This document shows, one piece after another, positions 8,094 to 64,000 of a stretch of 64,000 nucleotides of DNA (its first letter is position 1; each line of letters opens with the position of its first letter). The notes below the pieces were generated by a model. The model was not told where the DNA came from. It was given only the letters and a program-made list of their open reading frames with translations, and did no database searches. Source of the stretch: a phage; sequence record PZ386973.1; one strand, 5' to 3'. Both the position numbers and the translations under genes were made by a program.

Positions 8094-8094
8094 T

Positions 8095-8316
8095 ATGGGA
8101 AACGTCGTTCATCTGAGCCGTAAAACTAAAATACATCGTACTTCACTGAGTGCTGCTAATATGATTACACGTAGGGAAGGGGAAGAAAGTCCTAAGACAA
8201 CCCTAGCGTGGAAAATTGTAACCTCAAATCCAAATAAACCATTCAATTATAACGAGCTGAGCACCTCCATAGATATTCTATTAAAAGAAGTAGCTAGAGC
8301 TAAAGTAATTGAATAA
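8095..8316 (+). CDS. hypothetical small protein
   Basis: In-frame ATG at 8095 directly after the phoH stop; the longer track ORF overlaps phoH. Confidence 0.4.
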   Translation: MGNVVHLSRKTKIHRTSLSAANMITRREGEESPKTTLAWKIVTSNPNKPFNYNELSTSIDILLKEVARAKVIE

Positions 8317-8458
8317 GCTAAAAAGCTAGACTGACAACACAGAAGGCCTGGGTATGAAAATACTCGGGCCTTTTCTATCAGAAAATTTTATTTGCCTAAT
8401 GACCGATAATAAAGTAGAATATTTCCTAAATCCTGATAACTATAAAAAGGAAAACCAA

Positions 8459-48361: not shown

Positions 48362-49092
48362 TGAAAGATTTGGCTGTAAAGTTTAAGAATATTCTAGCCC
48401 TCGCTAAGGGGGCTGATCATCGCTGTTTCTCTGATTTAACCACTGAAGAGAAACATGCAGTAATGTTTGTTTGCGAAATGTTCCCAGCTAGATGGGAGGG
48501 TGGTAAGATTAAGTATGATAACAAAGCAGCAAAAGCTGACCTTGCTTATTCTTACGTTGATATGAATAAACTCCTAAAGTCTTTAGACCCCACTGCTAAA
48601 GGTCACATGGGAAACTATATTCATGTTATCATTGATGAACCTCTCCCGGCTTATAGAGAAACATCCGCTAGAGAAGCATTAGAAGCATATCCAGAACAAT
48701 TATACATTCCGCCTAAGAAATGTAAGTTCGATCATCTTCCAGCGTTAGCATTTGAAACTAGTATCACGTTTGAAGATATTTATAGAACGATTGGAGCTGT
48801 AGTAGCACGGATTGCAGTGGCACATCATCGTGGCATAGAACTTACTACAGCGGAAGATTATATTCTATACGCTATCCATGATGAAAAGGACTCCTTCAAA
48901 CGTCTAATGGATGCTCTAGGATTAGGCAGTCTCACAGCGCTTGTGCTTAACCAGGCTCCTAGAACCAAGCGTTATGCAAAAGGATCTATTACTCTTGAAG
49001 AAACAGGGTCTACATCTTCATTCCTTGCTACATATATTTATTTAGCATCTAAAGGAATCTATCTAAAGGCTAGAAAGAATGTCACTATATAA
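48361..49092 (+). CDS. hypothetical protein
   Basis: Track ORF. Confidence 0.45.
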   Translation: MKDLAVKFKNILALAKGADHRCFSDLTTEEKHAVMFVCEMFPARWEGGKIKYDNKAAKADLAYSYVDMNKLLKSLDPTAKGHMGNYIHVIIDEPLPAYRETSAREALEAYPEQLYIPPKKCKFDHLPALAFETSITFEDIYRTIGAVVARIAVAHHRGIELTTAEDYILYAIHDEKDSFKRLMDALGLGSLTALVLNQAPRTKRYAKGSITLEETGSTSSFLATYIYLASKGIYLKARKNVTI

Positions 49093-49435
49093 AGTATATA
49101 TTCTTGCAAACAGGGATCTGACAAAGATCCCTAAGAGAACAAAGATCGGTATTAGCATGAATCCACATAATAGGATTCAAACACTAAACTTAGATAAGAT
49201 AGTCTATCGAGGTTTTGACGATTTATACGTGTATGGGGTCTATGAAACCCATAATCCTAGAGATCTAGAAGCCGCTGCTCATATCTACTTTAAGAAATAC
49301 CGTTGTAATTTAAAGGGATTCGAAGGATGTACAGAGTTCTTTGATATTCACCCACAACTTGCAGAACGATTCCTATTAAATACAGGAGCCAAGAAGATTT
49401 ACGATCCCAATACCAATCTCGAAGGAGATGTATAA
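49079..49435 (+). CDS. T5orf172/GIY-YIG-like domain protein
   Basis: YKVYILANRD...KIGISMNPHNRIQTL resembles the T5orf172 pattern as recalled. Confidence 0.45.
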   Translation: MSLYKVYILANRDLTKIPKRTKIGISMNPHNRIQTLNLDKIVYRGFDDLYVYGVYETHNPRDLEAAAHIYFKKYRCNLKGFEGCTEFFDIHPQLAERFLLNTGAKKIYDPNTNLEGDV

Positions 49436-49452
49436 ACATTAACAAAATCTTC

Positions 49453-49482
49453 TTGACAACTCATTGCGGCACATGTTATAAT
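49453..49482 (+). promoter_or_regulatory. consensus sigma70 promoter (TTGACA-N18-TATAAT) reading into the repeat field
   Basis: Canonical hexamers; no ORF downstream for about 1.4 kb. Confidence 0.5.
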
Positions 49483-49835
49483 AATCTCATAGATTAAAAA
49501 CAACTCTTGTTTTGAACTCTAGGGGCGATGATTATTACACTTAGTATTACGTCTATACGTTGCGACAGCACGAGTATAGATCTAATTACTAAGTCTTCCG
49601 TAATACTCACGCGCCCCACGAGTAAGCTCTCATGAAATGGGGGGACTATTTACTTTTAAAATATATGAAAATATTTAAAGGCAATATCTGTGTTCAAGAT
49701 GGTACACCTGTTGCCGCTCTTCTGCTAGGATGGCACAACACTTTCTTCTAGACTCCTAAGTTTATCACGAAATACCACACTTCTAGTGGGCGGTTCTCCT
49801 AAGTTTCTAGGAACATATACTAGGCGGTTAATACA

Positions 49836-49880
49836 GGGCGGTTATAGGGAGGGCGGTTATAGGGAGGGCGGTTATTTCTA
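49836..49880. repeat. tandem repeat, 3 copies of GGGCGGTTAT(A)GGGA
   Basis: Three adjacent copies read directly. Confidence 0.8.
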
Positions 49881-49917
49881 GAAGACATTTTTTGAAAACA
49901 CATTTCCAGAAATTACT

Positions 49918-50517
49918 GTCGGATTTGCACACTGCATTTCTAGAAATTTATGGTCGGATTTGCACAAACGCCTAAGTTTTTAGGAACATATAATCTCTTG
50001 AAAATAGCAGCATTATTTCGGGCCGAAGGCCCATGATTGCCTGAGTTTTTAGAGCCACAGAAATTTTCCCTTGTCAAGCTATTTTGCCACATTTAGCTAA
50101 TAAAATTTTACTTTTTCTGCACCTATCTCAAATCTTCTCCAATTATCTCAACTCTTCCCCAAAATCCCGGCAAATCTGGTGCTCCGCACCAACCATGCGC
50201 CCACATCCCTCTAGTCCCCAAAATTTCTTCGTTCTCTCAACTTCTCTCCAAACCTATACAATCACACACCCTCTAATCGAAGTCATAAAAATCTTGTCGG
50301 ATTCGCACATCTTAATCCTAGAAAAACCGTGTCGGATTTGCACATACCCCACAGGATTCGAACGCAGTTCGTGATTGCTGGAGTTTTTGGGAAAATTCAT
50401 TGTCGGATTCGCACACTATAAAAATTTTTAGGGTCGGATTTGCACACTACCAAAAATTGTCGGATTCGCACATACACGCCAGCACGTAACCCGTGGAGCA
50501 AATGTCGGATTTGCACA
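49918..50517. repeat. iteron array: 8 direct copies of GTCGGATT(T/C)GCACA
   Basis: Copies at 49918, 49963, 50296, 50331, 50402, 50433, 50459, 50504, all same orientation. Confidence 0.85.
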
Positions 50518-50522
50518 AAAGC

Positions 50523-50700
50523 GCAGGGCAATTGCCCTGCTAGTTTGAATGCGAATAAAAATGAGAATCATTATCATTTAAAAAGCGGAATGCGAATGAG
50601 AATCATTATCATTTACGAAAGGGAATGAGAACTATTCAGGAAGTGAAACGATTCTCATTTAGATAGTGAAATGCGAATGATAATGATTCGCATTTAAAAA
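50523..50700. repeat. 18-bp palindrome GCAGGGCAATTGCCCTGC plus direct and inverted copies of a GAATGCGAATGAGAATCATTATCATTTA unit
   Basis: Palindrome 50523-50540; repeat copies around 50547-50615 and inverted or palindromic copies 50646-50696. Confidence 0.75.
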
Positions 50701-50727
50701 CGGAAGTGAGAAACACTGTTATTTAAG

Positions 50728-50819
50728 TTATCCACAGACTTATCAACAGCACGATTTGACTTGACAAAATCCTAGCCATTTTGAGGCGTTATTAACAGAC
50801 TTATCCACAGCTTATCCTA
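50728..50819. promoter_or_regulatory. cluster of DnaA-box-like 9-mers (TTATCCACA and variants)
   Basis: TTATCCACA at 50728 and 50801; variants TTATCAACA, TTATTAACA, TTATCCTAC. Confidence 0.6.
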
Positions 50820-50835
50820 CTGTATAAATATACAG
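50796..50835. repeat. left arm of a 40-bp inverted repeat (partner 54682-54721)
   Basis: CAGACTTATCCACAGCTTATCCTACTGTATAAATATACAG; reverse complement matches the right arm at 39 of 40. Confidence 0.8.
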
Positions 50836-50986
50836 TATTCCTACGCAGTGAATAGTTCTAATATAGCGTTAAAACGTCCTAGATCGCATTCTAACGCGTT
50901 TAATTTTGGTGGGGATACTAAAACAAGGGGGTATTTATCTGGAGGGAGAAAAACGGGGATCAGATCCCCGTCGATTATTAGAAAAG

Positions 50987-51100
50987 AGGGCAATTATCCC
51001 GCTTTGCCATTTCGCGCCACTCATCCTGATGCCTAGACTTGCGACGGCGTACTAAAAACCGTTTATACCAGTGATTAAACCATCGTTTCATAAATCCTCC
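50987..51100 (-). CDS. small basic protein
   Basis: ATG after GAGGAGG; 37 codons; below track threshold. Confidence 0.3.
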
Positions 51101-51291
51101 TCAGGTAGTCGATGCGTGATCTTCTCCTCTTCCCCATAGGAATCGACCAAATGTTGATAATAACCATCGGCATCATAAATCACTTTATCATATTCGCCAC
51201 GCTCGACCGCTTGCCGATTCTCAGGTGTATCCGGCACATAGAAAACATCAACCATTGTGGTAGTTTTGGTCACAATAATTTTATTGCTCAT
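51088..51291 (-). CDS. hypothetical acidic protein
   Basis: Track ORF. Confidence 0.4.
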   Translation of the reverse strand: MSNKIIVTKTTTMVDVFYVPDTPENRQAVERGEYDKVIYDADGYYQHLVDSYGEEEKITHRLPEEDL

Positions 51292-51514
51292 AATAACGCT
51301 CCGTTATTAAAAATCCCCATATATTCCCGGCCAAATTTTACTAGTAACATAAGTTACTATCCCGGCAACAATTACGCTATAAACTATTAATAAGGTAAAC
51401 ATTAAACCAGACATAATAACTCCTAGTAAATATATTTTTGCCAATAGTGGCGAACGTTATCGCCACCAGCGGAATCATTAGCTGCCTCAGCATTACCAAC
51501 GAAAATATATAATC

Positions 51515-51874
51515 TCATTGTGCCACCTTTCGGAATGCTGTTTCAATACTATCCGCAGTGGATTGAATATATGCGCCTTTCATTATCAGGCGCTCAGTGC
51601 ACACCTTACGGAAGATATTAATAAAATCATCTTCATTTTCTGCGATTAATGCCTCCCCCATGACCTGAATATCACAAGATGCGAAAGTCAAAAATTGAAA
51701 CGCTAGTTCACGGGCAACGACCGCATTGATTTTATAATGCGCCTTGCCCTCATAAATATTAATAACGCCCTTGTAAGCCGGGGAAAGCTGATTTAAGTAG
51801 TTTGCTAACACTGCCGGACGGCAATTAGTAACAAAGCGATTGCCTTCATAAATTATCATTTGCATAGCTCCCAA
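51515..51874 (-). CDS. hypothetical protein
   Basis: Track ORF. Confidence 0.45.
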   Translation of the reverse strand: MGAMQMIIYEGNRFVTNCRPAVLANYLNQLSPAYKGVINIYEGKAHYKINAVVARELAFQFLTFASCDIQVMGEALIAENEDDFINIFRKVCTERLIMKGAYIQSTADSIETAFRKVAQ

Positions 51875-52101
51875 ATAGTTCCGCCGATAATCATTAGCTG
51901 ACTAATGATTATCAGAATAAAACCGATTGAAGGCAGGACGCCCCAATATTGGAACGCCCTTTTAATTTGTTGAATCATTTGTTAGCCTCCCAATTAGATA
52001 GCCAGATAATAACATAAAGATCCCCAGTAAAAGGGGATCATTTTTAAATAAGGTGGCGGTAAAACCGCCAACCATTGCAAGGGTAATAATAATAACGCTT
52101 T

Positions 52102-52314
52102 TCATAGTACCCCACGAAAGGCCGCGTAAAAGGTGGCAAAGTGTTTAACCGTTTCAGCGATCACGTTGCCGCGCTTATCAAATTTCTTTTCGGTAACACG
52201 AAAGGCATTTTTGTTACGTGCTACATATTCGATTTTACAATCAGGACGCTCAAACGTGTTTACATCCACCAGCTTAAAGCCTTTCGAACGTGCAAGAGAA
52301 ACGTTGCGAATCAT
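52102..52314 (-). CDS. hypothetical basic protein
   Basis: Track ORF. Confidence 0.4.
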   Translation of the reverse strand: MIRNVSLARSKGFKLVDVNTFERPDCKIEYVARNKNAFRVTEKKFDKRGNVIAETVKHFATFYAAFRGVL

Positions 52315-52317
52315 TTT

Positions 52318-52470
52318 TTATTCTCCTTTACTAGTCATGCAGCCCAGCAGATAAGAAAATGCAGCGATACCCGCGCCAATAATAACCGCGTGGACACCGA
52401 AAGCTATTGCAAAAAGGGATAAAATAGCGCCCAAGATACCTGCTAGAATAGCTCGAAAAATAACCATTTT
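52318..52470 (-). CDS. small hydrophobic membrane peptide
   Basis: 50 codons, two hydrophobic segments; one of several sub-threshold TM mini-ORFs between 51303 and 52470. Confidence 0.35.
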   Translation of the reverse strand, partial: KMVIFRAILAGILGAILSLFAIAFGVHAVIIGAGIAAFSYLLGCMTSKGE

Positions 52471-52513
52471 CATTCTCCTAGTTAGTGGGGCGAAAGTAAC
52501 GCCCCATTATTAA

Positions 52514-52746
52514 TTACATTAAAACAATTTTAGCGGCTTGTTTTTTGGTGCAATGTTCCGCTTTCAGGGTATCCAGCAAAAAGCCAGCCGTTTGCTGATC
52601 GATTTTATCGGCATTATATAGTTCCTGAATGGTGTTATAGGTTTTAGCAATGCCGAACTCCTGCACCATTTCATGAATGATGACGCGATTAGATACCCAA
52701 CCTTGCGCGGTGAACAGATGACTAGCAGAAGAATATGCAACCATTT
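52514..52746 (-). CDS. hypothetical protein
   Basis: Internal ATG with GGAGG RBS. Confidence 0.4.
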
Positions 52747-52811
52747 TAAGCCTCCAAATTTTTGGGAAAATTTTCAACCGTCCTCAAACGGTGTAAAGGC
52801 ATTATAACAAA

Positions 52812-52838
52812 AAAGGCCGCCATAATAGGCGGCCTTTA
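52812..52838 (-). terminator. intra-operon terminator/attenuator hairpin
   Basis: AAAGGCCGCCATAATAGGCGGCCTTT with a T-run on the minus strand. Confidence 0.45.
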
Positions 52839-52850
52839 CAAAACTTTACA

Positions 52851-53345
52851 TTAAACTACTTGTAAGGATTCAACATTGAAACATCGTTTTAATTCGTCAT
52901 GCAAAACAGCGTATTCCTCCCATCGGGTACTATCAGGAATATAAACAAGCTGTTTTAATCGGTTTGCATATATTACCGCTTTGTTATCAATTATCTCGAC
53001 GCCACCATATTTAATAACTAATTTCATGACGGAATTAATAGGATCGCCGCCGTTTACATATGTGCCGGACTTACTCAATTGATAATGATAAAGGCTTGCA
53101 TACACGTTGTCATTTTCAACCCATTCGCCAGTATCCTCATCTTCATACCCATCGCTACCAAAACGAGAAGCATTATCAATAGCCATTTCCTGAGCGAAAG
53201 CGTCGAGATCTGTACCAGCAGGAACAAAATATTCTTCGGTGTTCCCTTCCCCGCAGTACCCAGTATGGCAATCGACCAAAATGATCATATCGTGTTTTGC
53301 CGTGCTCACTTCTCCCAGTGAGAAGCCATATTTTTCCTCAGCCAT
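52851..53345 (-). CDS. hypothetical acidic protein
   Basis: Track ORF. Confidence 0.5.
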   Translation of the reverse strand: MAEEKYGFSLGEVSTAKHDMIILVDCHTGYCGEGNTEEYFVPAGTDLDAFAQEMAIDNASRFGSDGYEDEDTGEWVENDNVYASLYHYQLSKSGTYVNGGDPINSVMKLVIKYGGVEIIDNKAVIYANRLKQLVYIPDSTRWEEYAVLHDELKRCFNVESLQVV

Positions 53346-53410
53346 TTATTATCCTCCTATTAATTAATCAGGGAATAGTAAAGCGGGGAAACAATCCCCG
53401 CTAGATATTA

Positions 53411-54415
53411 TTATTCGCTTTCGGTGCTAGTGGTGAAGGTAGAAATATCGATACCTTTTACCATTTCATCAATCATTTCAGCGATGTTAAAACTTTGCAC
53501 CATTTCCAACATTGCCGCTTCCATAGCTGCCCCTGCTACCGCTTTCGCTTTCTGATTGCTTGGGGCATACTGGTCAACCGCTACGCTCAGCAGGTTGGCA
53601 ATTACTACTCGACCAATCGGCGTATCAATATAACCTTTAATCATGAACGGTGCTTTTTTAGCCGCTACTTTCGTAATTTGAGTCAGTGCAATTTTACCCG
53701 CTTCCAGTTTTGCAGCGTTTACAACAGCGGATTTATTAGCGGCAACAATATTAGCGATCTTGGTCATAGTATTTTTTCCTTTGTTTTCAGTAGTTTGAGT
53801 ATTAACGCTTTGAGTGTTAGAATTTACAACATGGTTTTCTGTATTGTCAACTGGTTTTAGCGTAAATCCAGCATTTGCAACATTTGATTCATTCCCATAC
53901 TCTAAATAATCGCTAGGGATCAACATGTTACCCGTTGACTTTTCAAAACACAAAACACCAGTTGTTTCTATTGCGTAACTATCCGCACCTTTATAGTTTG
54001 ATGATAGTTCACGCCAGATACTATTTAGTAACGATTCGACACTATCAAGCCTGATATTATTTATTTTTGTTGCTATTACCTGCTCTTTTTCTTGCACGTT
54101 ATATAATCGCGCAATGTAACCATTATTCGGCTCACTGTAACCAACAATGATAAAATCAATATCAGTTCCCCGACTGTTACGGAAAACGTGATAATCACGG
54201 TTGAAAATTACTAGTACCCTTGTCTGGTCTAGTAGTAATATGAAATCATTGACTGAATAATGAGTATCATTACTGTCTAAAATTTCATCATGAATCTTTT
54301 CAACCATGCTAGCGGTATGTTGTACACTTGCCGCGCTACTACCATCTAGCAGGTTGCGCAAACTACCCTTTACAATAGTTGCGTTTGCTGGTACTGCAAT
54401 TCTAGTAAAAGACAT
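53411..54415 (-). CDS. hypothetical two-domain protein with low-complexity linker
   Basis: Track ORF; first gene of the minus-strand cassette. Confidence 0.5.
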   Translation of the reverse strand: MSFTRIAVPANATIVKGSLRNLLDGSSAASVQHTASMVEKIHDEILDSNDTHYSVNDFILLLDQTRVLVIFNRDYHVFRNSRGTDIDFIIVGYSEPNNGYIARLYNVQEKEQVIATKINNIRLDSVESLLNSIWRELSSNYKGADSYAIETTGVLCFEKSTGNMLIPSDYLEYGNESNVANAGFTLKPVDNTENHVVNSNTQSVNTQTTENKGKNTMTKIANIVAANKSAVVNAAKLEAGKIALTQITKVAAKKAPFMIKGYIDTPIGRVVIANLLSVAVDQYAPSNQKAKAVAGAAMEAAMLEMVQSFNIAEMIDEMVKGIDISTFTTSTESE

Positions 54416-54681
54416 TCTCTTGTCTCCCTCGTTAATCGGTGAGTGAATGATAAAGGTATTTTCTTTCTAGGGGCAAATATTATTTTACCTTTTTATTTTC
54501 CTTGCCTAACGCCTAGTTTTATGCTAACCGCGCAGCGGTGCAATAAAGAGCAAACCACGGCGAAGCCACCAGGCCGACGCATCGAGGCTTTACTTTAATA
54601 TTACCCCACCGCATTTAGCTCGTTAGAAAGCGTTTTAGGCGGCCTAAAATTGATTGCAGTTGTTAACACTACCTTTTTACC

Positions 54682-54721
54682 CTGTATATTTATACAGTAG
54701 GATAACCTGTGGATAAGTCTG
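54682..54721. repeat. right arm of the 40-bp inverted repeat (partner 50796-50835)
   Basis: CTGTATATTTATACAGTAGGATAACCTGTGGATAAGTCTG. Confidence 0.8.
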
Positions 54722-54789
54722 TGTAAAACTCCTTATATCGCCGCCTATCGTGTCAAATTATTTTGTGCTGTGGATAACGTTGTGGATAA
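54699..54789. promoter_or_regulatory. cluster of DnaA-box-like 9-mers (TGTGGATAA orientation)
   Basis: TGTGGATAA at 54708, 54769, 54781; TAGGATAAC at 54699. Confidence 0.6.
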
Positions 54790-55150
54790 CTTAAATGATA
54801 GTGGTTCTCACTTAGGCCGATAGTTTCTTATAGTTATTATTTCTATCGGTTACGATTTCTTATAATTATTATTTCTCACTAATTTATATGTATATTATAT
54901 ATTATAGAATAGTTAGTTGGCTAATGAGATTTTCCGTGATTAATAGTCTGCTAATAGTTTAAGCCGTTACAATCCACCAGCATGATTATCATCCTAGCAA
55001 TTATTAGTCTGCTATCTTTCCGATGCATACTAACAAATAAAAGTCAATTAATTTAGTTCATAAAATAAGTAGTTATCCACTGGAAAATAAAAGTCAAGTG
55101 GATAACTAGGAAAATTTCATTTTTGCTTTTGGGGATAAGTTATCAACAAG
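54790..55150. promoter_or_regulatory. AT-rich region with an inverted DnaA-box pair (origin-like)
   Basis: Long A/T-rich tracts; TTATCCACT at 55073 and AGTGGATAA at 55097; no ORF. Confidence 0.4.
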
Positions 55151-55493
55151 GCTAGAATGCGCCTAAAACGCCCTAGAATGCGATGAAAGTTTTAGTCATG
55201 CCATTGCATTGCCTACCCTCGTTTATCTCTACCACGAGCTTTTTAGGTTTTGTCAAGTAGGGCAAAGCAAATATAAATGAAAAAATTACTTGCCTATCTG
55301 CTATGTTTTGTGGTATTCGCGCGCCCGTTTCTTTTAATTTTAGTGCGCCGCGCCCAGGTCGCCGCACGCCGTCCGGTGAATCGTGTCTTTACATTTCTTT
55401 ACAAAAATAAGGTTGCGCCATTTTCGGGAATCCCCTATTATTTATCACGTAGGGCGGCAATGACGAACTACACGGCGGGAAGTTTACCGCCAC

Positions 55494-55532
55494 GCTCTTT
55501 AAAAATTGGGTACATCTTAAAGCCTATCGGCG
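55494..55532. repeat. left arm of an imperfect inverted repeat flanking ORF 55564-55767
   Basis: TGGGTACATCTTAAAGCCTATCGGC core; partner 55773-55813. Confidence 0.65.
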
Positions 55533-55563
55533 GTAAACTTATACATTATAAGGAATCGACGAT

Positions 55564-55767
55564 ATGAAACAAACTTTATTGATCACTGGCAAGCCTAGCA
55601 AGGCACTAGATAGCAAAACAAAAAATTTGTTGACAGTAGCGCAAAGATCGGTAAAATACCGATTCAAGCAATACAAGAAAGGCCGCCAGCAAGGTCTAGA
55701 AATGATCTGGCGAAATATTATGATTGACTTGAAAGAAAATCATAAAAAATCTCAAAAAATTGTTTGA
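55564..55767 (+). CDS. small basic protein flanked by inverted repeats
   Basis: Track ORF; AAGGA RBS; Lys/Arg-rich. Confidence 0.4.
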   Translation: MKQTLLITGKPSKALDSKTKNLLTVAQRSVKYRFKQYKKGRQQGLEMIWRNIMIDLKENHKKSQKIV

Positions 55768-55772
55768 CAACC

Positions 55773-55813
55773 TAGCCGATAGGTTTTAAGATGTACCCAG
55801 TTCGATAAGAGCG
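55773..55813. repeat. right arm of the inverted repeat flanking ORF 55564-55767
   Basis: GCCGATAGGTTTTAAGATGTACCCAG core. Confidence 0.65.
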
Positions 55814-55997
55814 ATAACTTGATAAAATTTGACGGTCGGTGCTTACCATAATGCATCCCGCCCCCTAACTGGGATATAGCGGCCTACGTGGAGTTCTTTA
55901 AATTGATTTAACTGGCGAGCGGATTGTTACTTATTACCTGCTACTGTTTTCTAGCAGGTAATGCGGAACAATCCTCAAATAACTAGGAGTTTATATT

Positions 55998-56249
55998 ATG
56001 CAAAACGTTATCACCGCGCCGAAAGTTGGTCAGTCTGTTTTTATTCCTTTCGTTACCAAAACGGATGAATTAACCGGAAAGGCCGAACGTATTAAAGGTG
56101 CGGCGCTTATGCCGTTTGATACAATCGACGCGGTATATGCTGAAAATGAACGCAGTAACAACGGCAAACCCGTTTTTAACGTTCGTGTTAAATCCGGCGA
56201 CGTTGTAAAGGTTGTTCAACGCAACGAAAAATGGGAAGCTGTATTATAA
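55998..56249 (+). CDS. hypothetical protein
   Basis: Track ORF after AGGAG. Confidence 0.45.
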   Translation: MQNVITAPKVGQSVFIPFVTKTDELTGKAERIKGAALMPFDTIDAVYAENERSNNGKPVFNVRVKSGDVVKVVQRNEKWEAVL

Positions 56250-56350
56250 TCTAGTGTTAACTTTATATTCCCCTGAAATATGGGGAATATAACGATTAAC
56301 ATTAAGTTAATCATTAAATCCCTTAAATTAAACAAATAGGAGTTTTTACC

Positions 56351-56758
56351 ATGACTAACGTTAAAACCGCAAAATTCGCTTGGAATGAAGAAAACACTCA
56401 GAAAGCTGTTTCTATGTACCAGCAGTTAATCAATGAAAACGGTTTAGATTTCGCAAATAGTGACGGCCTGAAAGAAATTGCAAAAGCAGTTGGCGCGGCT
56501 TCTCCCGTATCCGTTCGGTCAAAATTGACCAGCGCGAAAGCGTATCAGAAAAGCGATAAGCCGCGCAAAGTTGGCGGTGGTAGCTCAATCCGCAAAGCGC
56601 ATTATGTACGCGTTATTGCTAAACATGCTATTGATTCCGGCATTATCAAAGACGCCGATGATCTGGCAAGCCTTGAAAGTGCTAAACTTGAAACGCTGGA
56701 CGCCGTGGCGCAACTGTTAGGCGTTGCCGATGAAGTGAAACAAGCCGCAGGAGAATAA
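56351..56758 (+). CDS. pre-early-region protein, possible A2 counterpart
   Basis: Track ORF after AGGAG; sits immediately upstream of the A1-like gene; assignment by position and size only. Confidence 0.4.
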   Translation: MTNVKTAKFAWNEENTQKAVSMYQQLINENGLDFANSDGLKEIAKAVGAASPVSVRSKLTSAKAYQKSDKPRKVGGGSSIRKAHYVRVIAKHAIDSGIIKDADDLASLESAKLETLDAVAQLLGVADEVKQAAGE

Positions 56759-56846: not shown

Positions 56847-57044
56847 ATGATTTTCTTTCCTACTGAGTCATTAATTTTAGGCTTGTTTATTATGGCGGCC
56901 TCGTTATTACTCGCTTATTTTCAAAATGATTTAGATTCATATTATTTTAAACGTAAATCTAAGTTAGCAAAGCGTTTAGGTCTGATTTGTTTTATTGCCG
57001 CCGTTGCTTGTGGTGTTAGTTCTAGCCTTATGCCTTTAAATTAA
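56847..57044 (+). CDS. small membrane protein
   Basis: Track ORF with hydrophobic helices. Confidence 0.3.
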   Translation: MIFFPTESLILGLFIMAASLLLAYFQNDLDSYYFKRKSKLAKRLGLICFIAAVACGVSSSLMPLN

Positions 57045-57118
57045 TGTTGCAAATTATAACGCCTATTATTCAAGGCGTTATATTTGGCAATATTGCCGTT
57101 ATTAACTTAATCCCTTTA

Positions 57119-58798
57119 ATGGAGTTTATTACTATGATTATTTCCGCAGAAAAACAAACCGTTATCCTGAAAATGGCCGCTGACTTTAATTTCTATGGTA
57201 AACGTCTGCGCGCCACTAAACTGGAGGTCTGCGACGATATATCAAAAGCGGTCTACGATACAACAAAACACTCGACCGCTATCTGCGACTGGCTGGAAGC
57301 AAATAAACCAGTTAAACCGAAAGCGGCGAAAGTAGCAAAAGCCATTAAAAACGATGAGCGTCCAGAAGCGGCGGGGATTGTTTCTAGCACGGTTGAACAG
57401 TGGGAAGTAAAACAAGGCAAACGCTTTATTATTACGTCGATTCAGAATAATACTTTCCCGCATAAAAACTTTTTAGCCTCATTGGAAAAATTCGCTGAAT
57501 ATATCGGTGCTGATTTGCTTGTTTCTAAGTATATTTATAATAAAAACGGCTTCCAAAATGGCGAGGGTGCGGATGGAATCAAATATGATTCCGCGTTCGA
57601 TAAATATATTTGCAGCAAAAACGTGTTTTTAAATAACCGCCGTTTTGCTTTCATGGCTGAAATTAATGTTTTGCCAACAGCAGACTATCCGCTTTCTGGA
57701 TTCGCTGAAACTGCAACGGCGCTTAATCTGGAAGGTCTGGCAATCGGTCATGCTAAAATCACCGCTGAAAGCGTGCCAGCTCTCAAAGGTGAAGTAGTAC
57801 GCCGCATGTATTCAACCGGAACGGCAACGCTCAAAAACTACATTCAGCAGAAAGCAGGGCAAAAAGCGGAAGCGCTTCATAACTTTGGTGCGCTGATTGT
57901 CGAGTTCGACGAGGACGGGGAGTTTTTTGTTCGCCAGCTTGAAACTATGGATGAAAGCGGGGTGTTTTATGATCTGAATGTTTGCGCTACTCCCGCCGGA
58001 TGCTATGAAACAACGGGGCATGTTTTAGGCTTGCAATATGGTGACATACACGCCGAAAAATTGGATGATGATTGTGCCGTTGCGTCATGGGCTGGCGAAA
58101 ATAGCTTGCTTGATATTCTTAAACCAAAATATCAGTTTGTGCATGATGTGCATGATTTTACATCGCGCAACCATCACAACCGCGCTTCGGGTGTATTCCT
58201 AGCAAAACAATATGCCGCCGGACGTGATAAAGTTCTGGATGATCTTATCGATACGGGGCGCGTGCTGGAATCGATGGAACGAGATTTTAGCCAAACAATC
58301 ATTGTTGAATCTAATCACGATCTGGCGCTATCCCGCTGGCTTGATGATCGTAATGCTAACATTAAAGACGATCCAGCAAACGCGGAACTATATCACCGCC
58401 TGAATGCCGAGATTTATGGAGCTATTGCAGAAAAAGACGATACTTTCAACGTGCTAGATTATGCATTGCGCAAGGTTGCAGGTTGTGAGTTTAACGCCAT
58501 TTTCCTAACAACTGACCAATCATTTAAAATTGCAGGCATCGAGTGTGGCGTACACGGTCACAACGGCATTAACGGCAGCCGTGGCAATCCTAAACAATTT
58601 AAGAAATTGGGCAAATTGAACACCGGACACACTCACACCGCCAGCATTTACGGCGGGGTATATACCGCTGGCGTTGCTGGTAGTCTCGATATGGGTTACA
58701 ACGTTGGCGCGTCAAGCTGGACGCAAACGCATTTAATTACCTATGCAAACGGGCAGCGCACTTTGATCGATTTTAAGAATGGTAAATTCTTTGCGTAA
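57119..58798 (+). CDS. A1: A1-like pre-early protein with metallophosphoesterase domain
   Basis: GDIHA, GHNG and GHTHT metallophosphatase motifs; about 555 aa from the internal ATG; matches T5 A1 as recalled. Confidence 0.6.
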   Translation: MEFITMIISAEKQTVILKMAADFNFYGKRLRATKLEVCDDISKAVYDTTKHSTAICDWLEANKPVKPKAAKVAKAIKNDERPEAAGIVSSTVEQWEVKQGKRFIITSIQNNTFPHKNFLASLEKFAEYIGADLLVSKYIYNKNGFQNGEGADGIKYDSAFDKYICSKNVFLNNRRFAFMAEINVLPTADYPLSGFAETATALNLEGLAIGHAKITAESVPALKGEVVRRMYSTGTATLKNYIQQKAGQKAEALHNFGALIVEFDEDGEFFVRQLETMDESGVFYDLNVCATPAGCYETTGHVLGLQYGDIHAEKLDDDCAVASWAGENSLLDILKPKYQFVHDVHDFTSRNHHNRASGVFLAKQYAAGRDKVLDDLIDTGRVLESMERDFSQTIIVESNHDLALSRWLDDRNANIKDDPANAELYHRLNAEIYGAIAEKDDTFNVLDYALRKVAGCEFNAIFLTTDQSFKIAGIECGVHGHNGINGSRGNPKQFKKLGKLNTGHTHTASIYGGVYTAGVAGSLDMGYNVGASSWTQTHLITYANGQRTLIDFKNGKFFA

Positions 58799-59627: not shown

Positions 59628-60362
59628 ATGAATCAAGTTAAAACGAATATTACCCGTAATTTCCCGCATATTTCCCGCGTTATGATTTGGGATCTGGACG
59701 GCACTATCATTAATTCTTTCCATCGTGTAGCGCCTTGTTTTGATAGCGAGGGCAATTTAGATTTAAATAAGTATAAAAATGAAGCCTGCAAACATCATTT
59801 AATAATGCAGGATTCATTATTGCCATTAGTTGAATATATGCGCCAGTGCATGAATGACGCTAACACGCTAAACATTATTTGCACCGCTCGACTAATGAGC
59901 AAATCAGATTATTATTTCTTGCGTAAACAAGGATTGCGAGGGCGTGGAAATAGTAATATCCGCGTGTTTTCCCGCGATACCCTGCACAAATACTTTAAAG
60001 CTGATAAGGTTAGCGAAATATACCACAGCAAGGACGCAGTATATAAAAGCCATTATTTTGAATTATTTAAACAATTATATCCGAACGCTGATTTTACAAT
60101 GATTGATGATCATAAAGGCGTGTTAGCGGCGGCGGCATCATACGGATTTAAAACGCTAGACGCGCAAGCCGTTAATGATATTCTATCAATCGGTGTTACA
60201 TTGATTGGTGAAACCTTTATTGATGAATCGCTCGACGATGATAATGATTATCAGTTCCTGGCCGACCGCCTGCAATTATGTTGGGAAGGTATGACCGAGG
60301 AAGAACGCGCAGAATATAGTTGCAGCCCGCAACAATATATTGAGAAATTAAAAGTTGCGTAA
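59628..60362 (+). CDS. dmp: HAD-family 5'-deoxyribonucleotidase-like protein
   Basis: MIWDLDGTIINS (DxDGT motif I); 244 aa; matches T5 dmp as recalled. Confidence 0.6.
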   Translation: MNQVKTNITRNFPHISRVMIWDLDGTIINSFHRVAPCFDSEGNLDLNKYKNEACKHHLIMQDSLLPLVEYMRQCMNDANTLNIICTARLMSKSDYYFLRKQGLRGRGNSNIRVFSRDTLHKYFKADKVSEIYHSKDAVYKSHYFELFKQLYPNADFTMIDDHKGVLAAAASYGFKTLDAQAVNDILSIGVTLIGETFIDESLDDDNDYQFLADRLQLCWEGMTEEERAEYSCSPQQYIEKLKVA

Positions 60363-60380
60363 TAATTAAAGTTGAAATAG

Positions 60381-60417
60381 TTTCATCCTGCAATTAAAAT
60401 GGTTGCAGGATGAAACA
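60381..60417. terminator. bidirectional terminator hairpin
   Basis: GTTTCATCCTGCAA...TTGCAGGATGAAAC 14-bp stem between convergent genes. Confidence 0.55.
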
Positions 60418-60527
60418 ATTACCCTGCTAATAGTAACGGGGTGTGGCGGTTAGCAGACTAAGTATTTTCCCCCAACCCACTGGACACACCTCCATGTGTA
60501 ATCTTATGAAATTTGGCAAAAGGTTAA

Positions 60528-60773
60528 TTAGCGCATAGAAGGGTCATCAAACCGATGTTCGGGTCTAAACTCACGAAATCTCTTCCGCGACGCCCGAGAA
60601 CCGTCCGCCCACTCCCGTTCAAACTCCGCACGTTTTTCATCAAACCTCTGCTCCCTTTCCGCAATCTCCCGCGATACTTCCGCAATATATTTGCGATGCT
60701 TGTTAATGGCCGCAGTCATTCCGAAAACTCCCGCGATTATTCCGATAATAAAAGCAATTACAATACTAAACAT
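60528..60773 (-). CDS. small membrane protein
   Basis: Track ORF with N-terminal TM helix. Confidence 0.4.
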   Translation of the reverse strand: MFSIVIAFIIGIIAGVFGMTAAINKHRKYIAEVSREIAEREQRFDEKRAEFEREWADGSRASRKRFREFRPEHRFDDPSMR

Positions 60774-60960
60774 CTAGTTCTCTCTCAATTTGCAGAATAC
60801 GAGTGCTATCACAACGTTGCAGTTTTACTGATTTTTCTATAGCTAATTGTTGTTGTTTTACTCTGGCTTCTAGAGTTTTTAGGCGAACATACTCGGTATA
60901 AGAAACAAGGAAAATTGCCCGGACTAATATTACTATTAGTGTAGCTGCCAATTCCATCAT
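60766..60960 (-). CDS. small membrane protein
   Basis: Track ORF; followed by two more sub-threshold TM mini-ORFs around 60960-61207. Confidence 0.4.
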   Translation of the reverse strand: MMELAATLIVILVRAIFLVSYTEYVRLKTLEARVKQQQLAIEKSVKLQRCDSTRILQIERELDV

Positions 60961-61368
60961 TTACGTTTCTCCGTTAATAACGTTTCAATTCTAGCCAGGT
61001 GGTTATCTAAAATACATTGCCCAATAATCACAATCCCTAGTAGTGCAATAATTACCCATTCCATTAAATCCACCCCGCCATAGCTGCTAACCAAAAACCT
61101 ACGAAAATAAAGAATAGGATAGTCCCAAGTCCAAAACTATTAATCCAGCTATCATACACCTCTCCGCGTCTGCTCTTTCTTTTGTTTGACATATCTTTCA
61201 TGCTCCTATAAGTGTGGTATTTAAAATAGTCTATAATTTGTACACAACCAACCGTGCTTATAGACTCCTAGAAGGACTTCTACTTTTCCTACCTAGTGGT
61301 TTCTGCCAGTACACCATCCAAGAAATAAAAAATTTAGTTTACTTGGATGTCTTTTTGTTTTATACTAA

Positions 61369-61635
61369 TTACAAGTAATTAGATTGTTCTAGTTTAAATT
61401 TACAGTCACCATATTTAAGGTCAAACTGACTGAGATCCCACCACCCAAACTTAGTACGGAGCTGTACTACTGGAAAGCGATCTCCCTTAATACGAACTTT
61501 TTGAACCTTGAGGCCGTAATGTTCTTCTCCCGCACCCCCAAAAGATTTTACAAATCCCGTACAAAATGGTTTAGGAGCAGGTGCACAACCAGATAACATA
61601 ACTGCGGCAACTAGTGCAATCACAAACTTTTTCAT
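61369..61635 (-). CDS. llp: small lipoprotein, Llp-like (candidate receptor-blocking protein)
   Basis: Lipobox MKKFVIALVAAVMLSGC; divergent from and adjacent to the receptor-binding-like gene. Confidence 0.55.
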   Translation of the reverse strand: MKKFVIALVAAVMLSGCAPAPKPFCTGFVKSFGGAGEEHYGLKVQKVRIKGDRFPVVQLRTKFGWWDLSQFDLKYGDCKFKLEQSNYL

Positions 61636-61720
61636 ATTTATCTCTCCATTTCTAATTTATGAATCTATTATAGCAAAATAGAGAGATAAAAGCAAATACA
61701 TTTTTATAATAGGAGATTAT

Positions 61721-63508
61721 ATGGGTTTTTTCGCTGGAAAATATAGTGATGGTAAAACTGTATTATCACTAAACAAAGTGAATGGTGGGGATATTAATGC
61801 CCACAAAACTCCTAATGCCAATACTATATTTCACTCTGATATGCCATTTGTTCTAGTTGAGAGTACTTATGAAAGTGCACTTTCTAATGCTGGAAATGGC
61901 TTTTTTGTATGTCAGATGCCTTCTGTGATAGCTAACCTAAAAAGTAATGATCCTGGTAGGGTTATACTAACCGCTGTTGAGATAAATGGTACACATAGAG
62001 CTTTTCTTAACGGTACTCAATCCCAGGTTGGGCAATTTCTTGCATTTTTTGAAGATCCCCCTATTGGTAGGGCTGGTGCTGAACTAGGCCTTACGTCAGC
62101 TTTTGCATCTGGTAATAGTTTGGCACATGGTACTTACACTTATAACTCCAGTCTAGGCCATGAAGAGTCAATAGCTAGACAAGGTACTGGTGGTACTATA
62201 TCACAGGCTTCTGGATTTAACTTATACAGACCTGGAGGGGCATATGCCGGTGAAGCTATCGGTAGAGCATGGACTTTAGCAGGATTTCCAGCTGGAGCAT
62301 CTAAAGTATCGATAAATAGTGGTAATGTTGACTTCTGGCACCCTAATTGGCAAGCTCCTATAGGGGCTGGGAAAAGGGGTCATAATTGGTTTTATGTTTG
62401 TAATTCCAATATACGTGGGTATGCAGGTAAAAAAGGTACTACGCCAAGTAATGTTAGTGTCCTATATAATTCTTCAACCTATCCAAATAAGGTTTATGTA
62501 TGCAGAGGCTCGACATCTAACTTAGCATCACAAGCAGCAAAGAAGATGTATGTGCAGGATAGTTATAATGTTACTCCTACCAAAGTTATTTGGTATGTGC
62601 TGAATCTTAGATACTCTAATGGTAGTATGAGCGTTGCTAGTAATCCCTTTACTGGATCCGATATTCTTATAAGCCCCTCTAATTTTACTATAAAAGGTGT
62701 TAGTCTTCCAAATACTAGTTACAAATTCATTAATCAGAATGCTTTTGGTAACTTATCGTCTAGACCTGATATGGAGTACATTGGTAATAACGTTGCTTAT
62801 ACCGGAGTCTTTGGAGACACTACAGCAAGATGCGAGATTGTAGGTTCTAACAAAGGCTCTTTATGGTCTCCGGTAAATTATGGGGGCTCTAAATCTCAGA
62901 TAAGTATTTACAAATTTTCTGCTGGTAAACAATGGTATGTTAATTCCAATAATAATACTATAGGTAATGAGCATGGGGTTGTTTGGGGACCTTCTTCAGT
63001 ACCTTTACGATTACTGCCAAATAACGTAGCTAGTACTTACATAGGTGATGATATAAACCCCTCTTATCCAGGTACAGGAAATAAGTACGTAGGGCTATCT
63101 ACCGTAGGCCTTGGATTACCTAATGCAAACTCTACAGTAATCCTAACTACTGAGGTAGTTGCCGGAAATCTTAATACAGCAGGAGGTCCTATACGAACAT
63201 ATGGTGGCACTGCGTGGCAGGTGCAAGGTAGAAGACAACAAAGTTATACAGGTGGTGATGGGGTATTCCATCAAATATTAACTTTACCACCTAATCAGTT
63301 GGTGCCCTTCCATACTACAGCTTCTTATAGCTATACACAGCAGTGGGCTAGTCGACCTGATGATTTAACATTTACTAGAAGTGGATTTATTTATACTATT
63401 AAAAATTTGGGTAACGGTAACGCTGAGTTAGGTGTAGTTATACATGCAAATGAATCCGCCGCAGTTTTCTTACCGAGATTACGAGTAACAGTTCAACGCC
63501 TTACCTAA
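61721..63508 (+). CDS. receptor-binding tail protein-like (pb5/oad-like)
   Basis: 595 aa, Gly/Asn/Ser/Thr-rich; position next to the lipoprotein gene. Confidence 0.5.
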
Positions 63509-63528
63509 AGGAGGAAATATGGCAAATG

Positions 63529-64000
63529 ATGTATTAGTACCAGATCTTATGTCCCCTGAAGGGATGGATGTGATTGAAGCTTATTTACAGTGTGGCAGTG
63601 ATGTGCCTTCTGCCGCACGTAGCCTTGGAATGTCCGAAATTGCTTTCCGAGATATTATGAATCGTAGTGAAGTTAAGAACTACTTAAACGATATTTTTAT
63701 GGAGAGTGGATTCCGTAATAGGGATCGTTTGTTCGGTGTTCTAGATGAAGTTATTAAACGTAAACTAGAGGAGCTAGAAGAAACTGGCATGGGTTCTGAC
63801 CAGGATATTATGGATATTCTATGGAAGGCACACAAAATGAAGATGGAAGAAATGAAAATGATGGTAGAGTTAGAAAAAGCTAAAGCTGCTGTCCGTGCTC
63901 CTGCTAATCAGACCAATATCCAGAATAACATTATTGCTGGAGCTGGGGATCAAAACTACATGGACTTAATTACTTCCCTAGCTACTGGAGGTAAGAAGTA
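63529..64000 (+). CDS. hypothetical DNA-binding-like protein (possibly terminase small subunit; 3' end beyond window)
   Basis: ATG after AGGAGG; helical protein; no stop before the window edge. Confidence 0.4.

What the first reader, a model, noticed from the sequence alone, without database searches (positions are those of the whole stretch)
50796..54721. 40-bp inverted repeat carrying DnaA boxes brackets a 3.85-kb minus-strand gene cassette
CAGACTTATCCACAGCTTATCCTACTGTATAAATATACAG (50796-50835) and its partner (54682-54721) are reverse complements at 39 of 40 positions. Each arm contains TTATCCACA-type DnaA boxes. Between them lies a tightly packed minus-strand operon of about 12 genes of unknown function, visibly GC-richer than the early region. 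This could be an invertible segment, a relic of a mobile element, or a protein-bound boundary that organises the pre-early DNA.
Basis: seen in the sequence. Interest (0 to 1): 0.78.

Follow-up and report, generated by a model that had tools for sequence, protein, structure and literature searches.

The report
T5 terminal-repeat inverted repeats IRC/IRD
The repeat is real, but it is the already published IRC/IRD inverted-repeat pair in the first-injected DNA of T5-like phages. New here: each arm ends in a near-perfect host LexA (SOS) operator next to its DnaA boxes, and the gene block between the arms has flipped in some phage genera.

Summary
The 40-bp repeat (39/40) is the inner end of a 132-nt inverted repeat, 50704-50835 / 54682-54813, 79% complementary. 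The window is a T5-like phage.

The repeat is the published IRC-spacer-IRD / IRD'-spacer-IRC' pair of the T5 terminal repeat. It is annotated in GenBank AY587007, and Davison (2020) discussed it as part of the putative injection stop signal with eight DnaA boxes. The finding as stated is therefore already known.

Three results go beyond the searchable literature:
- **LexA-like operator.** The cassette-side tip of each arm ("palindrome D") scores like a strong LexA operator, 26.4 and 22.6 bits against at most 24.4 for 25 E. coli SOS boxes. It is conserved from T5 to Vibrio and Aeromonas phages.
- **Inversion.** The cassette is inverted, with gene order preserved, in Sugarlandvirus and Myunavirus.
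- **Independent arms.** The arms show no gene conversion or covariation.

No assembly that matched the junction query carries the flipped state (0 of 546 records). There is no recombinase, transposase or target-site duplication. A published viable T5 mutant deletes one whole arm plus the cassette.

Best reading: mirror-image docking modules for host proteins, not a switch or a transposon relic.

The parts
50704..50835 (.). Left arm. Equivalent to T5 IRD'-spacer-IRC' (AY587007 9332-9462) in Repeat Region 3, next to the putative injection stop signal.
   Evidence: 132-nt inverted repeat. 93.9% identical to the T5 arm (L004). T5 annotation.
54682..54813 (.). Right arm. Equivalent to T5 IRC-spacer-IRD (AY587007 6022-6152) in Repeat Region 2, between the cassette and the A2/A1 operon.
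   Evidence: The T5 equivalent lies within the stretch removed in the viable T5 hegG-to-017 deletion mutant.
50818..50837 (.). LexA-like SOS box TACTGTATAAATATACAGTA, 19 of 20 matches to the consensus. Equivalent to T5 'palindrome D'.
   Evidence: 26.4 bits, above all 25 reference E. coli boxes. T5 palindrome D at 9330-9349.
54680..54699 (.). LexA-like SOS box CCCTGTATATTTATACAGTA.
   Evidence: 22.6 bits, equal to the recA box on the same matrix.
50728..50748 (+). DnaA box pair TTATCCACA-gac-TTATCAACA (the IRC' part).
50789..50820 (+). DnaA box array TTATTAACA-gac-TTATCCACA-gc-TTATCCTAC. The last 9-mer overlaps the LexA-like box by 3 nt.
54708..54728 (-). DnaA box pair TTATCCACA / TTTTACACA (the IRD part).
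54769..54789 (-). DnaA box pair TTATCCACA / TTATCCACA (the IRC part).
50838..54679 (-). Variable accessory pre-early cassette, equivalent to T5 ORF011-017. It holds DUF7566 (53411-54415), a 164-aa gene (52851-53345), a T5.015-like nickase (52102-52314) and small genes of unknown function.
   Evidence: Length varies from 1.6 to 4.1 kb among relatives.
50535..50712 (.). DRE/DRC direct repeats abutting the left arm. The outer end of both arms resembles this repeat unit.
   Evidence: D2, I7, I20. T5 annotation.
49910..50519 (.). Eight DRD repeats, TGTCGGATT(T/C)GCACA. This is the remainder of Repeat Region 3 (the putative iss region) and spans the inner end of the terminal repeat.
   Evidence: D1. 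T5 annotation.
56351..56758 (+). A2 gene, encoding a dimeric DNA-binding protein required for second-step transfer.
57044..58798 (+). A1 gene, encoding the DNA transfer / host-DNA degradation protein.

Best explanation
The two arms are mirror-image copies of one composite protein-docking module, in the DNA that a T5-like phage injects first.

**Module layout.** Reading outward from the cassette, each arm holds:
- a near-consensus LexA operator;
- about 8 bp further on, a DnaA-box pair, with a third weaker box overlapping the operator;
- a spacer of about 50 bp;
- a second DnaA-box pair;
- a GAGAA...TTTAA element related to the neighbouring DRC/DRE repeats.

**Shown.**
- The anatomy above.
- Its conservation across the family, independent of cassette content and orientation.
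- The independent evolution of the two arms.
- The dispensability of the A2-side arm.

**Inferred.**
- Host DnaA and LexA occupy both modules as soon as the first-step-transfer DNA enters the cell.
- The copy next to the DRE/DRD repeats is the last DNA to enter before the pause. It is the functionally important copy and helps hold or organise the DNA end at the injection stop.
- The A2-side copy is an accessory boundary between the divergent pre-early transcription units.

The inverted-repeat geometry is a consequence of placing two directional modules back to back around the cassette. It is not used for base-pairing or programmed switching. It has served at least once as the frame for an evolutionary inversion of the cassette.
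For: **Identity with the T5 feature.**

**Motif strength.**
- Six of ten consensus DnaA boxes in the window lie in the arms.
- The only two exact CTGTAT-N4-ATACAG sites in 64 kb are at the arm tips, against 0.16 expected.
- PWM scores are 26.4 and 22.6 bits. The 25 E. coli SOS boxes score 13.0 to 24.4, and the next-best site in the window scores 15.8.

**Conservation.**
- The same module occurs at both cassette edges in T5, Epseptimavirus-like loci, Sugarlandvirus, Pantoea AAS21 and My1.
- Proteus Stubb has the full module on the left and, on the A2 side, the palindrome only, with no DnaA-like 9-mer within 120 nt.
- Weaker versions occur in Aeromonas AhSzq-1, Vibrio 70E37-2 and BBMuffin.
- In all, 23 palindromes were observed against 0.56 expected in ten loci.
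- The module is absent from Shewanella phage 1/4, which has an A1 homolog but no T5-like layout.
- The composite motif occurs only in T5-like contigs among 2.9 million IMG/VR contigs.

**Independent arms.** Ortholog identity is 0.92 (left) and 0.86 (right). Left-versus-right identity is 0.764 within a genome and 0.760 between genomes. Variable columns do not covary.

**Arm orientation is independent of cassette orientation.**

**One arm is dispensable.** The viable T5 mutant deletes about 5393-9081 of AY587007.
Against: - No binding data exist for DnaA or LexA on this DNA. The literature says functional studies are lacking.
- The LexA matrix was built from SOS boxes recalled from memory.
- T5-like phages are propagated on recA1 hosts such as DH5alpha (host field of ESCO30). 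RecA-dependent LexA cleavage therefore cannot be an obligatory step.
- Proteins binding in the cytoplasm do not obviously explain why DNA still in the tail stops moving.
- The LexA-like box does not overlap the experimentally characterised promoter upstream of gene 011. Promoter-like matches inside the arms are weak and not above the shuffled expectation.
- The palindrome could instead be the operator of a phage protein such as A2.
Confidence: 0.5

Rival explanations
1. The palindrome at the arm tips is the operator of a phage-encoded protein, not of LexA. The best candidate is the dimeric DNA-binding protein A2, alone or with A1. A2 would bind next to DnaA-occupied DNA at the stop site and recruit A1 to release the block for second-step transfer. 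The resemblance to the SOS box would be coincidence or mimicry.
For: - A2 is a DNA-binding dimer essential for second-step transfer, and its target site is unknown.
- The A2 model is all-helical with a possible small helix-turn-helix-like N-terminal part.
- A palindrome suits a dimer.
- One copy of the palindrome remains in the viable deletion mutant.
Against: - The site matches the LexA consensus at 19 of 20 positions, including the flanking TA dinucleotides.
- The site stays the same while A2 diverges. A2 is only 66% identical in Sugarlandvirus. In the Vibrio and Aeromonas phages, whose A1 is only about 34% identical, the half-sites are still kept. The host LexA consensus, by contrast, is shared across Gammaproteobacteria (own knowledge).
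- A2 has no significant structural match to LexA or to any solved DNA-binding protein: best E=0.61, LexA at E=4.2.
Confidence: 0.2
2. The arms are transcription boundary elements. DnaA-box complexes and LexA would act as roadblocks or operators. They would insulate the toxic accessory cassette from the divergent A2/A1 operon and stop RNA polymerase from running into the DNA end held in the envelope. They would play no role in the injection stop itself.
For: - The modules sit exactly at both edges of the cassette, with the same polarity relative to it whichever way the cassette points.
- Cassette genes 011, 013 and 015 are toxic.
- The A2-side arm lies between divergent promoters T5P3 and T5P4.
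- Deleting the arm together with the cassette is tolerated.
- DnaA-box complexes are known to block transcribing RNA polymerase in an orientation-dependent way (own knowledge: the asnC/dnaA-box work of Schaefer and Messer).
Against: - Terminator-like hairpins already precede the left arm.
- No promoter overlapping the boxes is supported.
- It does not explain why conservation of the iss-side arm (0.92) exceeds that of the A2-side arm (0.86).
Confidence: 0.2
3. The segment is a programmed invertible switch, like the G segment of Mu or the C segment of P1, flipping cassette expression within phage populations.
For: - A long inverted repeat brackets a gene block.
- The block is found in both orientations across genera.
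- On the A1 tree the two inverted lineages are not sisters: T5-like plus Sugarlandvirus 98% bootstrap, Sugarlandvirus plus My1 0%. This could mean recurrent inversion.
Against: - No recombinase in or near the cassette.
- 0 of 546 records contain the post-inversion junction, against 262 of 536 for the native one.
- No homogenisation of the arms.
- The cassette carries its own promoter, so flipping would not switch expression on or off.
- The cassette-protein tree cannot exclude one inversion followed by lateral exchange.
Confidence: 0.03
4. The arms are the terminal inverted repeats of an ancient transposon or other mobile element that delivered the cassette.
For: Inverted repeats flank a block of accessory genes whose content is highly variable between relatives.
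Against: - No transposase or integrase.
- No target-site duplication at either the 40-bp or the 132-bp edges.
- The arms are more conserved than the cassette and are found in every lineage of the family, always at the same place relative to A2 and the stop-signal repeats.
- The composite motif is found nowhere outside T5-like contigs.
Confidence: 0.03

Closest known systems
T5 inverted repeats IRC/IRD (Repeat Region 2) and IRD'/IRC' (Repeat Region 3) of the left terminal repeat (Heusterspreute 1987; Wang 2005, GenBank AY587007; Davison 2015 and bioRxiv 10.1101/866236)
   Same: It is the same feature in an orthologous position. The left arm is 93.9% identical to T5's. It has the same two conserved ends plus spacer, the same paired DnaA boxes 3 bp apart, and the same position between A2 and the DRE/DRD repeats. 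It brackets the oppositely transcribed variable gene block.
   Different: Nothing structural differs. New here are the reading of 'palindrome D' as a LexA operator, the demonstration that Type 2/3 cassettes are inverted homologs rather than unrelated replacements, the lack of arm co-evolution, and the mapping of a published deletion onto one arm.
DnaA-box clusters of oriC, datA and DARS in E. coli
   Same: Several high-affinity TTATCCACA boxes in a fixed orientation and close spacing, with weaker boxes adjoining. The two arrays face each other, as the two halves of oriC do.
   Different: The arrays are 1.6 to 4.1 kb apart. No unwinding element was identified. T5 replication origins map elsewhere. 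DnaA binding is untested.
LexA operators (SOS boxes) of host genes, colicin operons and temperate phages
   Same: A 20-mer matching TACTGTATATATATACAGTA at 17 to 19 positions, scoring in or above the range of genuine E. coli operators.
   Different: It lies in a strictly virulent phage. It does not overlap a demonstrated promoter. It is present as a mirrored pair flanking a gene block, and each copy is fused to DnaA boxes.
Site-specific invertible segments (Mu G/Gin, P1 C/Cin, Salmonella hin)
   Same: Inverted repeats bracket a gene block of a few kb that exists in two orientations in nature.
   Different: There is no invertase gene. The arms are 132 nt and only 79% alike, not short crossover sites. 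Orientation is fixed within each genus. The cassette has its own promoter.
Conserved regulatory cassettes flanking hyperplastic regions in T4-type phages (PeSL elements; own knowledge, Arbiol et al. 2010)
   Same: Conserved non-coding sequences flank highly variable accessory early genes and could guide modular exchange by homologous recombination.
   Different: PeSLs are direct repeats of a promoter plus stem-loop. Here the repeats are inverted and built from host-factor sites.

Membership tests
T5-type IRC-spacer-IRD / IRD'-spacer-IRC' repeats | Two copies of about 131 bp in inverted orientation, each with conserved ends of 39-41 bp and a spacer of about 52 bp | tested here: met
   Arms of 132 nt. 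The conserved ends match between arms while the spacer differs between arms.
T5-type IRC-spacer-IRD / IRD'-spacer-IRC' repeats | Located in the terminal repeat. One copy lies beside the DRE/DRD repeats and the other towards A2, bracketing a variable gene block on the strand opposite to A1/A2. | tested here: met
T5-type IRC-spacer-IRD / IRD'-spacer-IRC' repeats | Eight DnaA or DnaA-like boxes in pairs separated by 3 bp | tested here: met
   Six consensus plus two one-mismatch boxes, with pair spacing of 12 nt start to start.
T5-type IRC-spacer-IRD / IRD'-spacer-IRC' repeats | Sequence orthology to the T5 arms | tested here: met
   93.9% (left) and 75.9% (cross-arm) identity to T5 locus L004.
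Programmed invertible segment (Gin/Hin/Cin type) | A recombinase (invertase) gene in or next to the segment | tested here: not met
   PHROGs and Pfam scans of ten cassette proteins found none. The annotated neighbours are A2, A1 and hypothetical proteins.
Programmed invertible segment (Gin/Hin/Cin type) | Both orientations present among close relatives or within one stock | tested here: not met
   Synthetic flipped junction: 0 of 546 records. Native junction: 262 of 536. Heterogeneity within a stock cannot be tested without reads.
Transposon or insertion-sequence relic | Transposase gene or remnant between the terminal inverted repeats | tested here: not met
Transposon or insertion-sequence relic | Target-site duplication flanking the inverted repeats | tested here: not met
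   No direct repeat of 3-12 bp at either set of edges.
LexA operator (SOS box) | Palindrome CTGT-N8-ACAG within the 20-mer consensus TACTGTATATATATACAGTA | tested here: met
   19/20 and 17/20 matches. 26.4 and 22.6 bits, against 13.0-24.4 for 25 E. coli boxes.
LexA operator (SOS box) | Binding by LexA and SOS-dependent regulation | not testable with these tools
   No experimental data were found.
LexA operator (SOS box) | Overlap with a promoter that it represses | tested here: inconclusive
   Only weak promoter-like matches overlap the boxes, and the total count is not above shuffles. The characterised gene-011 promoter lies about 180 bp away in T5.
DnaA-box cluster (oriC / datA / DARS-like) | Clustered 9-mers matching TTWTNCACA | tested here: met
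   Six of ten window sites lie in 264 nt. The same clustering occurs in distant lineages.
DnaA-box cluster (oriC / datA / DARS-like) | DnaA binding, plus for an origin an adjacent unwinding element | not tested
   DnaA binding cannot be tested with these tools. An unwinding element was not looked for. T5 origins map near the genome centre.

The most novel reading that the evidence does not exclude
Palindrome D at the tip of each arm is a genuine, high-affinity LexA operator fused to a DnaA-box array. Strictly virulent T5-like phages would then recruit two host master regulators, LexA and DnaA, onto the first-injected DNA. The copy next to the injection stop signal would take part in holding or releasing the genome during two-step DNA transfer, or would couple pre-early functions to the host's SOS and replication state. 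This would give the 60-year-old injection-stop problem its first defined host protein-DNA contacts.
Probability: 0.3. Interest if true: 0.75.

Novelty: already known. Interest (0 to 1): 0.42.

Why it matters
The mechanism that stops T5 DNA entry at 8% and restarts it remains unknown. Papers from 2023 and 2026 still say so.

The inverted repeats and their DnaA boxes are the main published candidates, so re-finding them adds nothing by itself. Three points here sharpen the problem:
- The unexplained 'palindrome D' scores better than any E. coli SOS box in the reference set used here. It is conserved from Escherichia phages to Vibrio phages. This names a second testable host factor.
- The two arms do not co-evolve, and one of them is deleted in a viable mutant. 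Models that need the arms to pair or knot together are therefore weakened.
- The cassette has been inverted between the arms during the evolution of the family. This shows that arm function does not depend on cassette orientation.

All three points can be tested with existing T5 genome-engineering tools.

Tried and rejected
**Arm pairing or gene conversion: rejected.** Left-versus-right identity is the same within and between genomes, and variable columns do not covary.

**Polymorphic inversion among close relatives: rejected.** A synthetic junction search found none.

**Exact inversion crossover points: unresolved.**
- The 200-nt inner flanks are too diverged in Sugarlandvirus and My1. L039 favours an endpoint at the arm (z 14.1 against 6.6), but KpGranit is ambiguous.
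- State-B genomes carry 0.6-1.3 kb of small minus-strand genes between the left arm and the inverted block. These genes are lineage-specific and uninformative. One marginal 36-aa match (E=8e-4) hints that a gene next to the left arm may not have been inverted.

**Number of inversion events: unresolved.**
- A1 groups T5-like phages with Sugarlandvirus at 98% bootstrap.
- The DUF7566 tree gives Sugarlandvirus plus My1 at 49%.
- The first support values, taken after re-rooting, were unreliable and were replaced by direct split counts.

**A2 as a LexA-like protein: inconclusive.** There was no Pfam hit in the local copy, no PDB sequence hit and no significant fold match.

**Promoters inside the arms: not supported.** Matches are weak and not enriched.

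**Rfam:** nothing in 49000-56500.

**RecA-dependent LexA cleavage as the trigger for second-step transfer: rejected.** T5-like phages are propagated on recA1 DH5alpha.

**Davison 2015 review:** could not be retrieved. I cannot exclude that it or the 1987 and 2005 subscription-journal papers mention LexA.

Full report
**1. Observation.**

The two 40-mers are at 50796-50835 and 54682-54721 and are reverse complements at 39 of 40 positions. The repeat finder extends them to 132-nt arms, 50704-50835 and 54682-54813, 79% complementary and 3846 nt apart.

The consensus DnaA box TTWTNCACA occurs ten times in the 64-kb window, which is not more than the shuffled expectation. Six of those ten sites lie in the 264 nt of the two arms. 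One-mismatch variants complete four pairs spaced 3 bp apart.

Ten minus-strand ORFs of at least 40 aa fill 80% of the interval. The claim that the cassette is visibly GC-richer is not remarkable: 0.402 against 0.393 for the window, and 29% of equal-sized windows are at least as GC-rich.

**2. Identity.**

The region matches 541 phage records, all T5-like Demerecviridae. In records that start at the left genome end, it lies inside the annotated terminal repeat, between A2/A1/dmp and the non-coding repeat region.

The T5 reference record AY587007 annotates:
- inverted repeat C (6022-6060);
- inverted repeat D (6112-6152);
- inverted repeat D' (9332-9372);
- inverted repeat C' (9424-9462);
- palindrome D (9330-9349);
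- promoter T5P4 in front of ORF011-017.

Davison's preprint (10.1101/866236) describes the 131-bp IRC-spacer-IRD and IRD'-spacer-IRC' units and their eight DnaA boxes in pairs 3 bp apart. It also describes the 52-bp spacer and the hypervariable, oppositely transcribed block between the units. It proposes that membrane-bound DnaA stops DNA injection there.

Papers from 2023 and 2026 say that experimental tests are lacking and that the mechanism is still poorly understood. The finding as written is therefore already known.

The window itself comes from a permuted assembly with the terminal repeat collapsed to one copy. Early genes lie to the left of the repeats, and terS and receptor-binding genes lie to the right of dmp.

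**3. Comparative anatomy.**

I collected 40 loci around A2 homologs from IMG/VR. I also fetched annotated regions from:
- T5 and Klebsiella KpGranit (Sugarlandvirus);
- Pantoea AAS21 and Proteus Stubb (Novosibvirus);
- Aeromonas AhSzq-1 and Vibrio 70E37-2;
- Pectobacterium My1 and Vibrio BBMuffin;
- Shewanella phage 1/4.

Both arms are present, in the same relative orientation, in every T5-like locus that reaches far enough. The gap between them ranges from 1590 to 4060 nt.

Among 30 distinct arm pairs:
- orthologous arms are 0.92 (left) and 0.86 (right) identical;
- left-versus-right identity is 0.764 within a genome and 0.760 between genomes;
- columns that vary in both arms do not covary.

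The arms are thus two independently conserved copies. Nothing selects for their complementarity, and they are not being homogenised by recombination.

**4. A LexA-like operator.**

The cassette-side tip of each arm is TACTGTATAAATATACAGTA (50818-50837) or CCCTGTATATTTATACAGTA (54680-54699). These are the only exact CTGTAT-N4-ATACAG sites in the window, against 0.16 expected.

I built a matrix from 25 classical E. coli SOS boxes. The boxes were recalled from the literature and may contain small errors. On that matrix:
- the two sites score 26.4 and 22.6 bits;
- the reference boxes score 13.0 to 24.4;
- the consensus scores 27.6;
- the next-best site in the window scores 15.8.

Comparable palindromes sit at both cassette edges in T5, Epseptimavirus-like loci, Sugarlandvirus, AAS21, My1 and Stubb. 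In Stubb the A2-side copy has no DnaA-like box within 120 nt. Weaker but recognisable versions, next to TTATCCACA boxes, occur in the Aeromonas and Vibrio phages. In ten loci there are 23 sites against 0.56 expected.

Shewanella phage 1/4 has an A1 homolog in a different genome layout and has neither motif. The composite motif CTGTATAWWTATACAGTAGGATAA occurs only in T5-like contigs of IMG/VR.

Davison's text never mentions LexA or SOS. Three full-text searches found no paper linking LexA to T5-like phages. The 1987, 2005 and 2015 papers could not be read.

**5. Inversion.**

In all 35 close relatives the cassette has the window's orientation. In Sugarlandvirus (L039, L040, L043) and in My1, the homologs lie in reverse order on the opposite strand, while the arms keep their orientation:
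- DUF7566, 334 against 321 aa, E=1.5e-36;
- the 164-aa protein, E=6e-20;
- the 119-aa protein, E=1e-4;
- in My1, also the 67-aa protein.

AAS21 and Stubb share the window's orientation by homology. The Vibrio and Aeromonas phages share it by strand. Davison had read the Type 2/3 blocks as unrelated replacement sequence.

On A1, T5-like phages group with Sugarlandvirus at 98% bootstrap, and the two inverted lineages never group. This requires either two inversions or one inversion plus lateral exchange. The cassette-protein tree cannot decide between these. The crossover points cannot be placed inside the arms at the present divergence.

A synthetic post-inversion junction is covered at 80% or more in 0 of 546 records. 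The native junction is covered in 262 of 536. The cassette encodes no recombinase or transposase, and there is no target-site duplication.

**6. Experimental constraint from the literature.**

A 2026 preprint (10.64898/2026.04.02.716235) reports a viable T5 mutant deleted from hegG to gene 017, with smaller plaques.

I mapped its primers onto AY587007, which places the deletion at about 5393-9081. It removes the whole IRC-spacer-IRD arm, its palindrome, promoter T5P4 and the cassette. It keeps palindrome D and IRD'-spacer-IRC'.

The pair of arms is therefore not essential. The arm next to the stop signal has not been tested.

The same paper reports that genes 011, 013 and 015 are toxic, and it cites earlier work that experimentally characterised a promoter upstream of gene 011.

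**7. Interpretation.**

The evidence fits two mirror-image docking modules for host DnaA and LexA at the edges of an accessory pre-early cassette. The copy beside the DRE/DRD repeats is the one that matters.

It does not fit a programmed switch, a transposon relic, or a structure that needs the arms to pair.

Obligatory RecA-dependent removal of LexA is excluded, because T5-like phages are propagated on recA1 hosts.

A rival that cannot be excluded is that the palindrome is bound by the phage protein A2. The A2 model is confident (pLDDT 84.7) but has no informative structural neighbour.

What the modules do is inference and needs the experiments listed. The candidates are holding the DNA end, insulating transcription, or sensing host state.

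Noticed in passing
window 49453-49482 (+): A perfect sigma-70 consensus promoter, TTGACA-18 nt (with TG)-TATAAT. By analogy with T5 and MM-1 it lies just outside the inner end of the terminal repeat. It points into the DRD/DRE repeats and the left arm, and no gene follows for more than 1 kb. An exact consensus sits at the same distance (about 1.37-1.47 kb from the left palindrome) in 8 of 35 loci, including Sugarlandvirus.
   Followed up: partly
window 49910-50519 and 50535-50712: Eight copies of TGTCGGATT(T/C)GCACA (the DRD repeats of T5) and three DRE/DRC units of about 62 nt fill the non-coding region beside the left arm. The outer end of both arms (GTGAGAAACACTGTTATTTAAG) resembles the DRC unit GAGAATCATTATCATTTAA. 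What binds these repeats is unknown.
   Followed up: partly
window 55493-55531 and 55775-55813: A second inverted repeat (39 nt, 85% complementary), probably the IRA/IRA' pair of T5 Repeat Region 1. It flanks two strong promoter-like sites on the plus strand (55630 and 55764) that face A2/A1.
   Followed up: no
window 59800-64000: dmp is followed directly by terS and receptor-blocking / receptor-binding genes, while early genes lie left of the repeat region. The source record is therefore a permuted assembly with the two terminal repeats collapsed into one.
   Followed up: yes
window 50812-50820 and 54697-54705: A third, weaker DnaA-like 9-mer (TTATCCTAC) lies 2 bp after the consensus box and overlaps the LexA-like 20-mer by 3 nt. 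DnaA oligomerisation and LexA binding could therefore compete or cooperate.
   Followed up: no
L039 4379-4793, L043 3800-4316, L048 (My1) genes 020-022: In the lineages with an inverted cassette, 0.6-1.3 kb of small lineage-specific genes sit between the left arm and the inverted block. They are on the strand opposite to the inverted block. One has a marginal 36-aa match (E=8e-4) to the window ORF 51307-51444.
   Followed up: partly
window 53411-54415 (-): The promoter-proximal cassette gene (DUF7566, the T5 gene 011 family) is the only cassette gene recognisable by homology in every lineage checked, from T5 to Proteus phage Stubb. In T5 AY587007 the ORF is shorter (ORF011, 245 aa). It is reported to be toxic and resists functional prediction.
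   Followed up: partly
L087 (Shewanella phage 1/4) 10833-12443: An A1 homolog (41% identity) sits among nucleotide-metabolism genes in a phage without the T5-type terminal-repeat layout, A2 neighbour or DnaA/LexA modules. It is useful as a natural control for which features travel with A1.
   Followed up: partly
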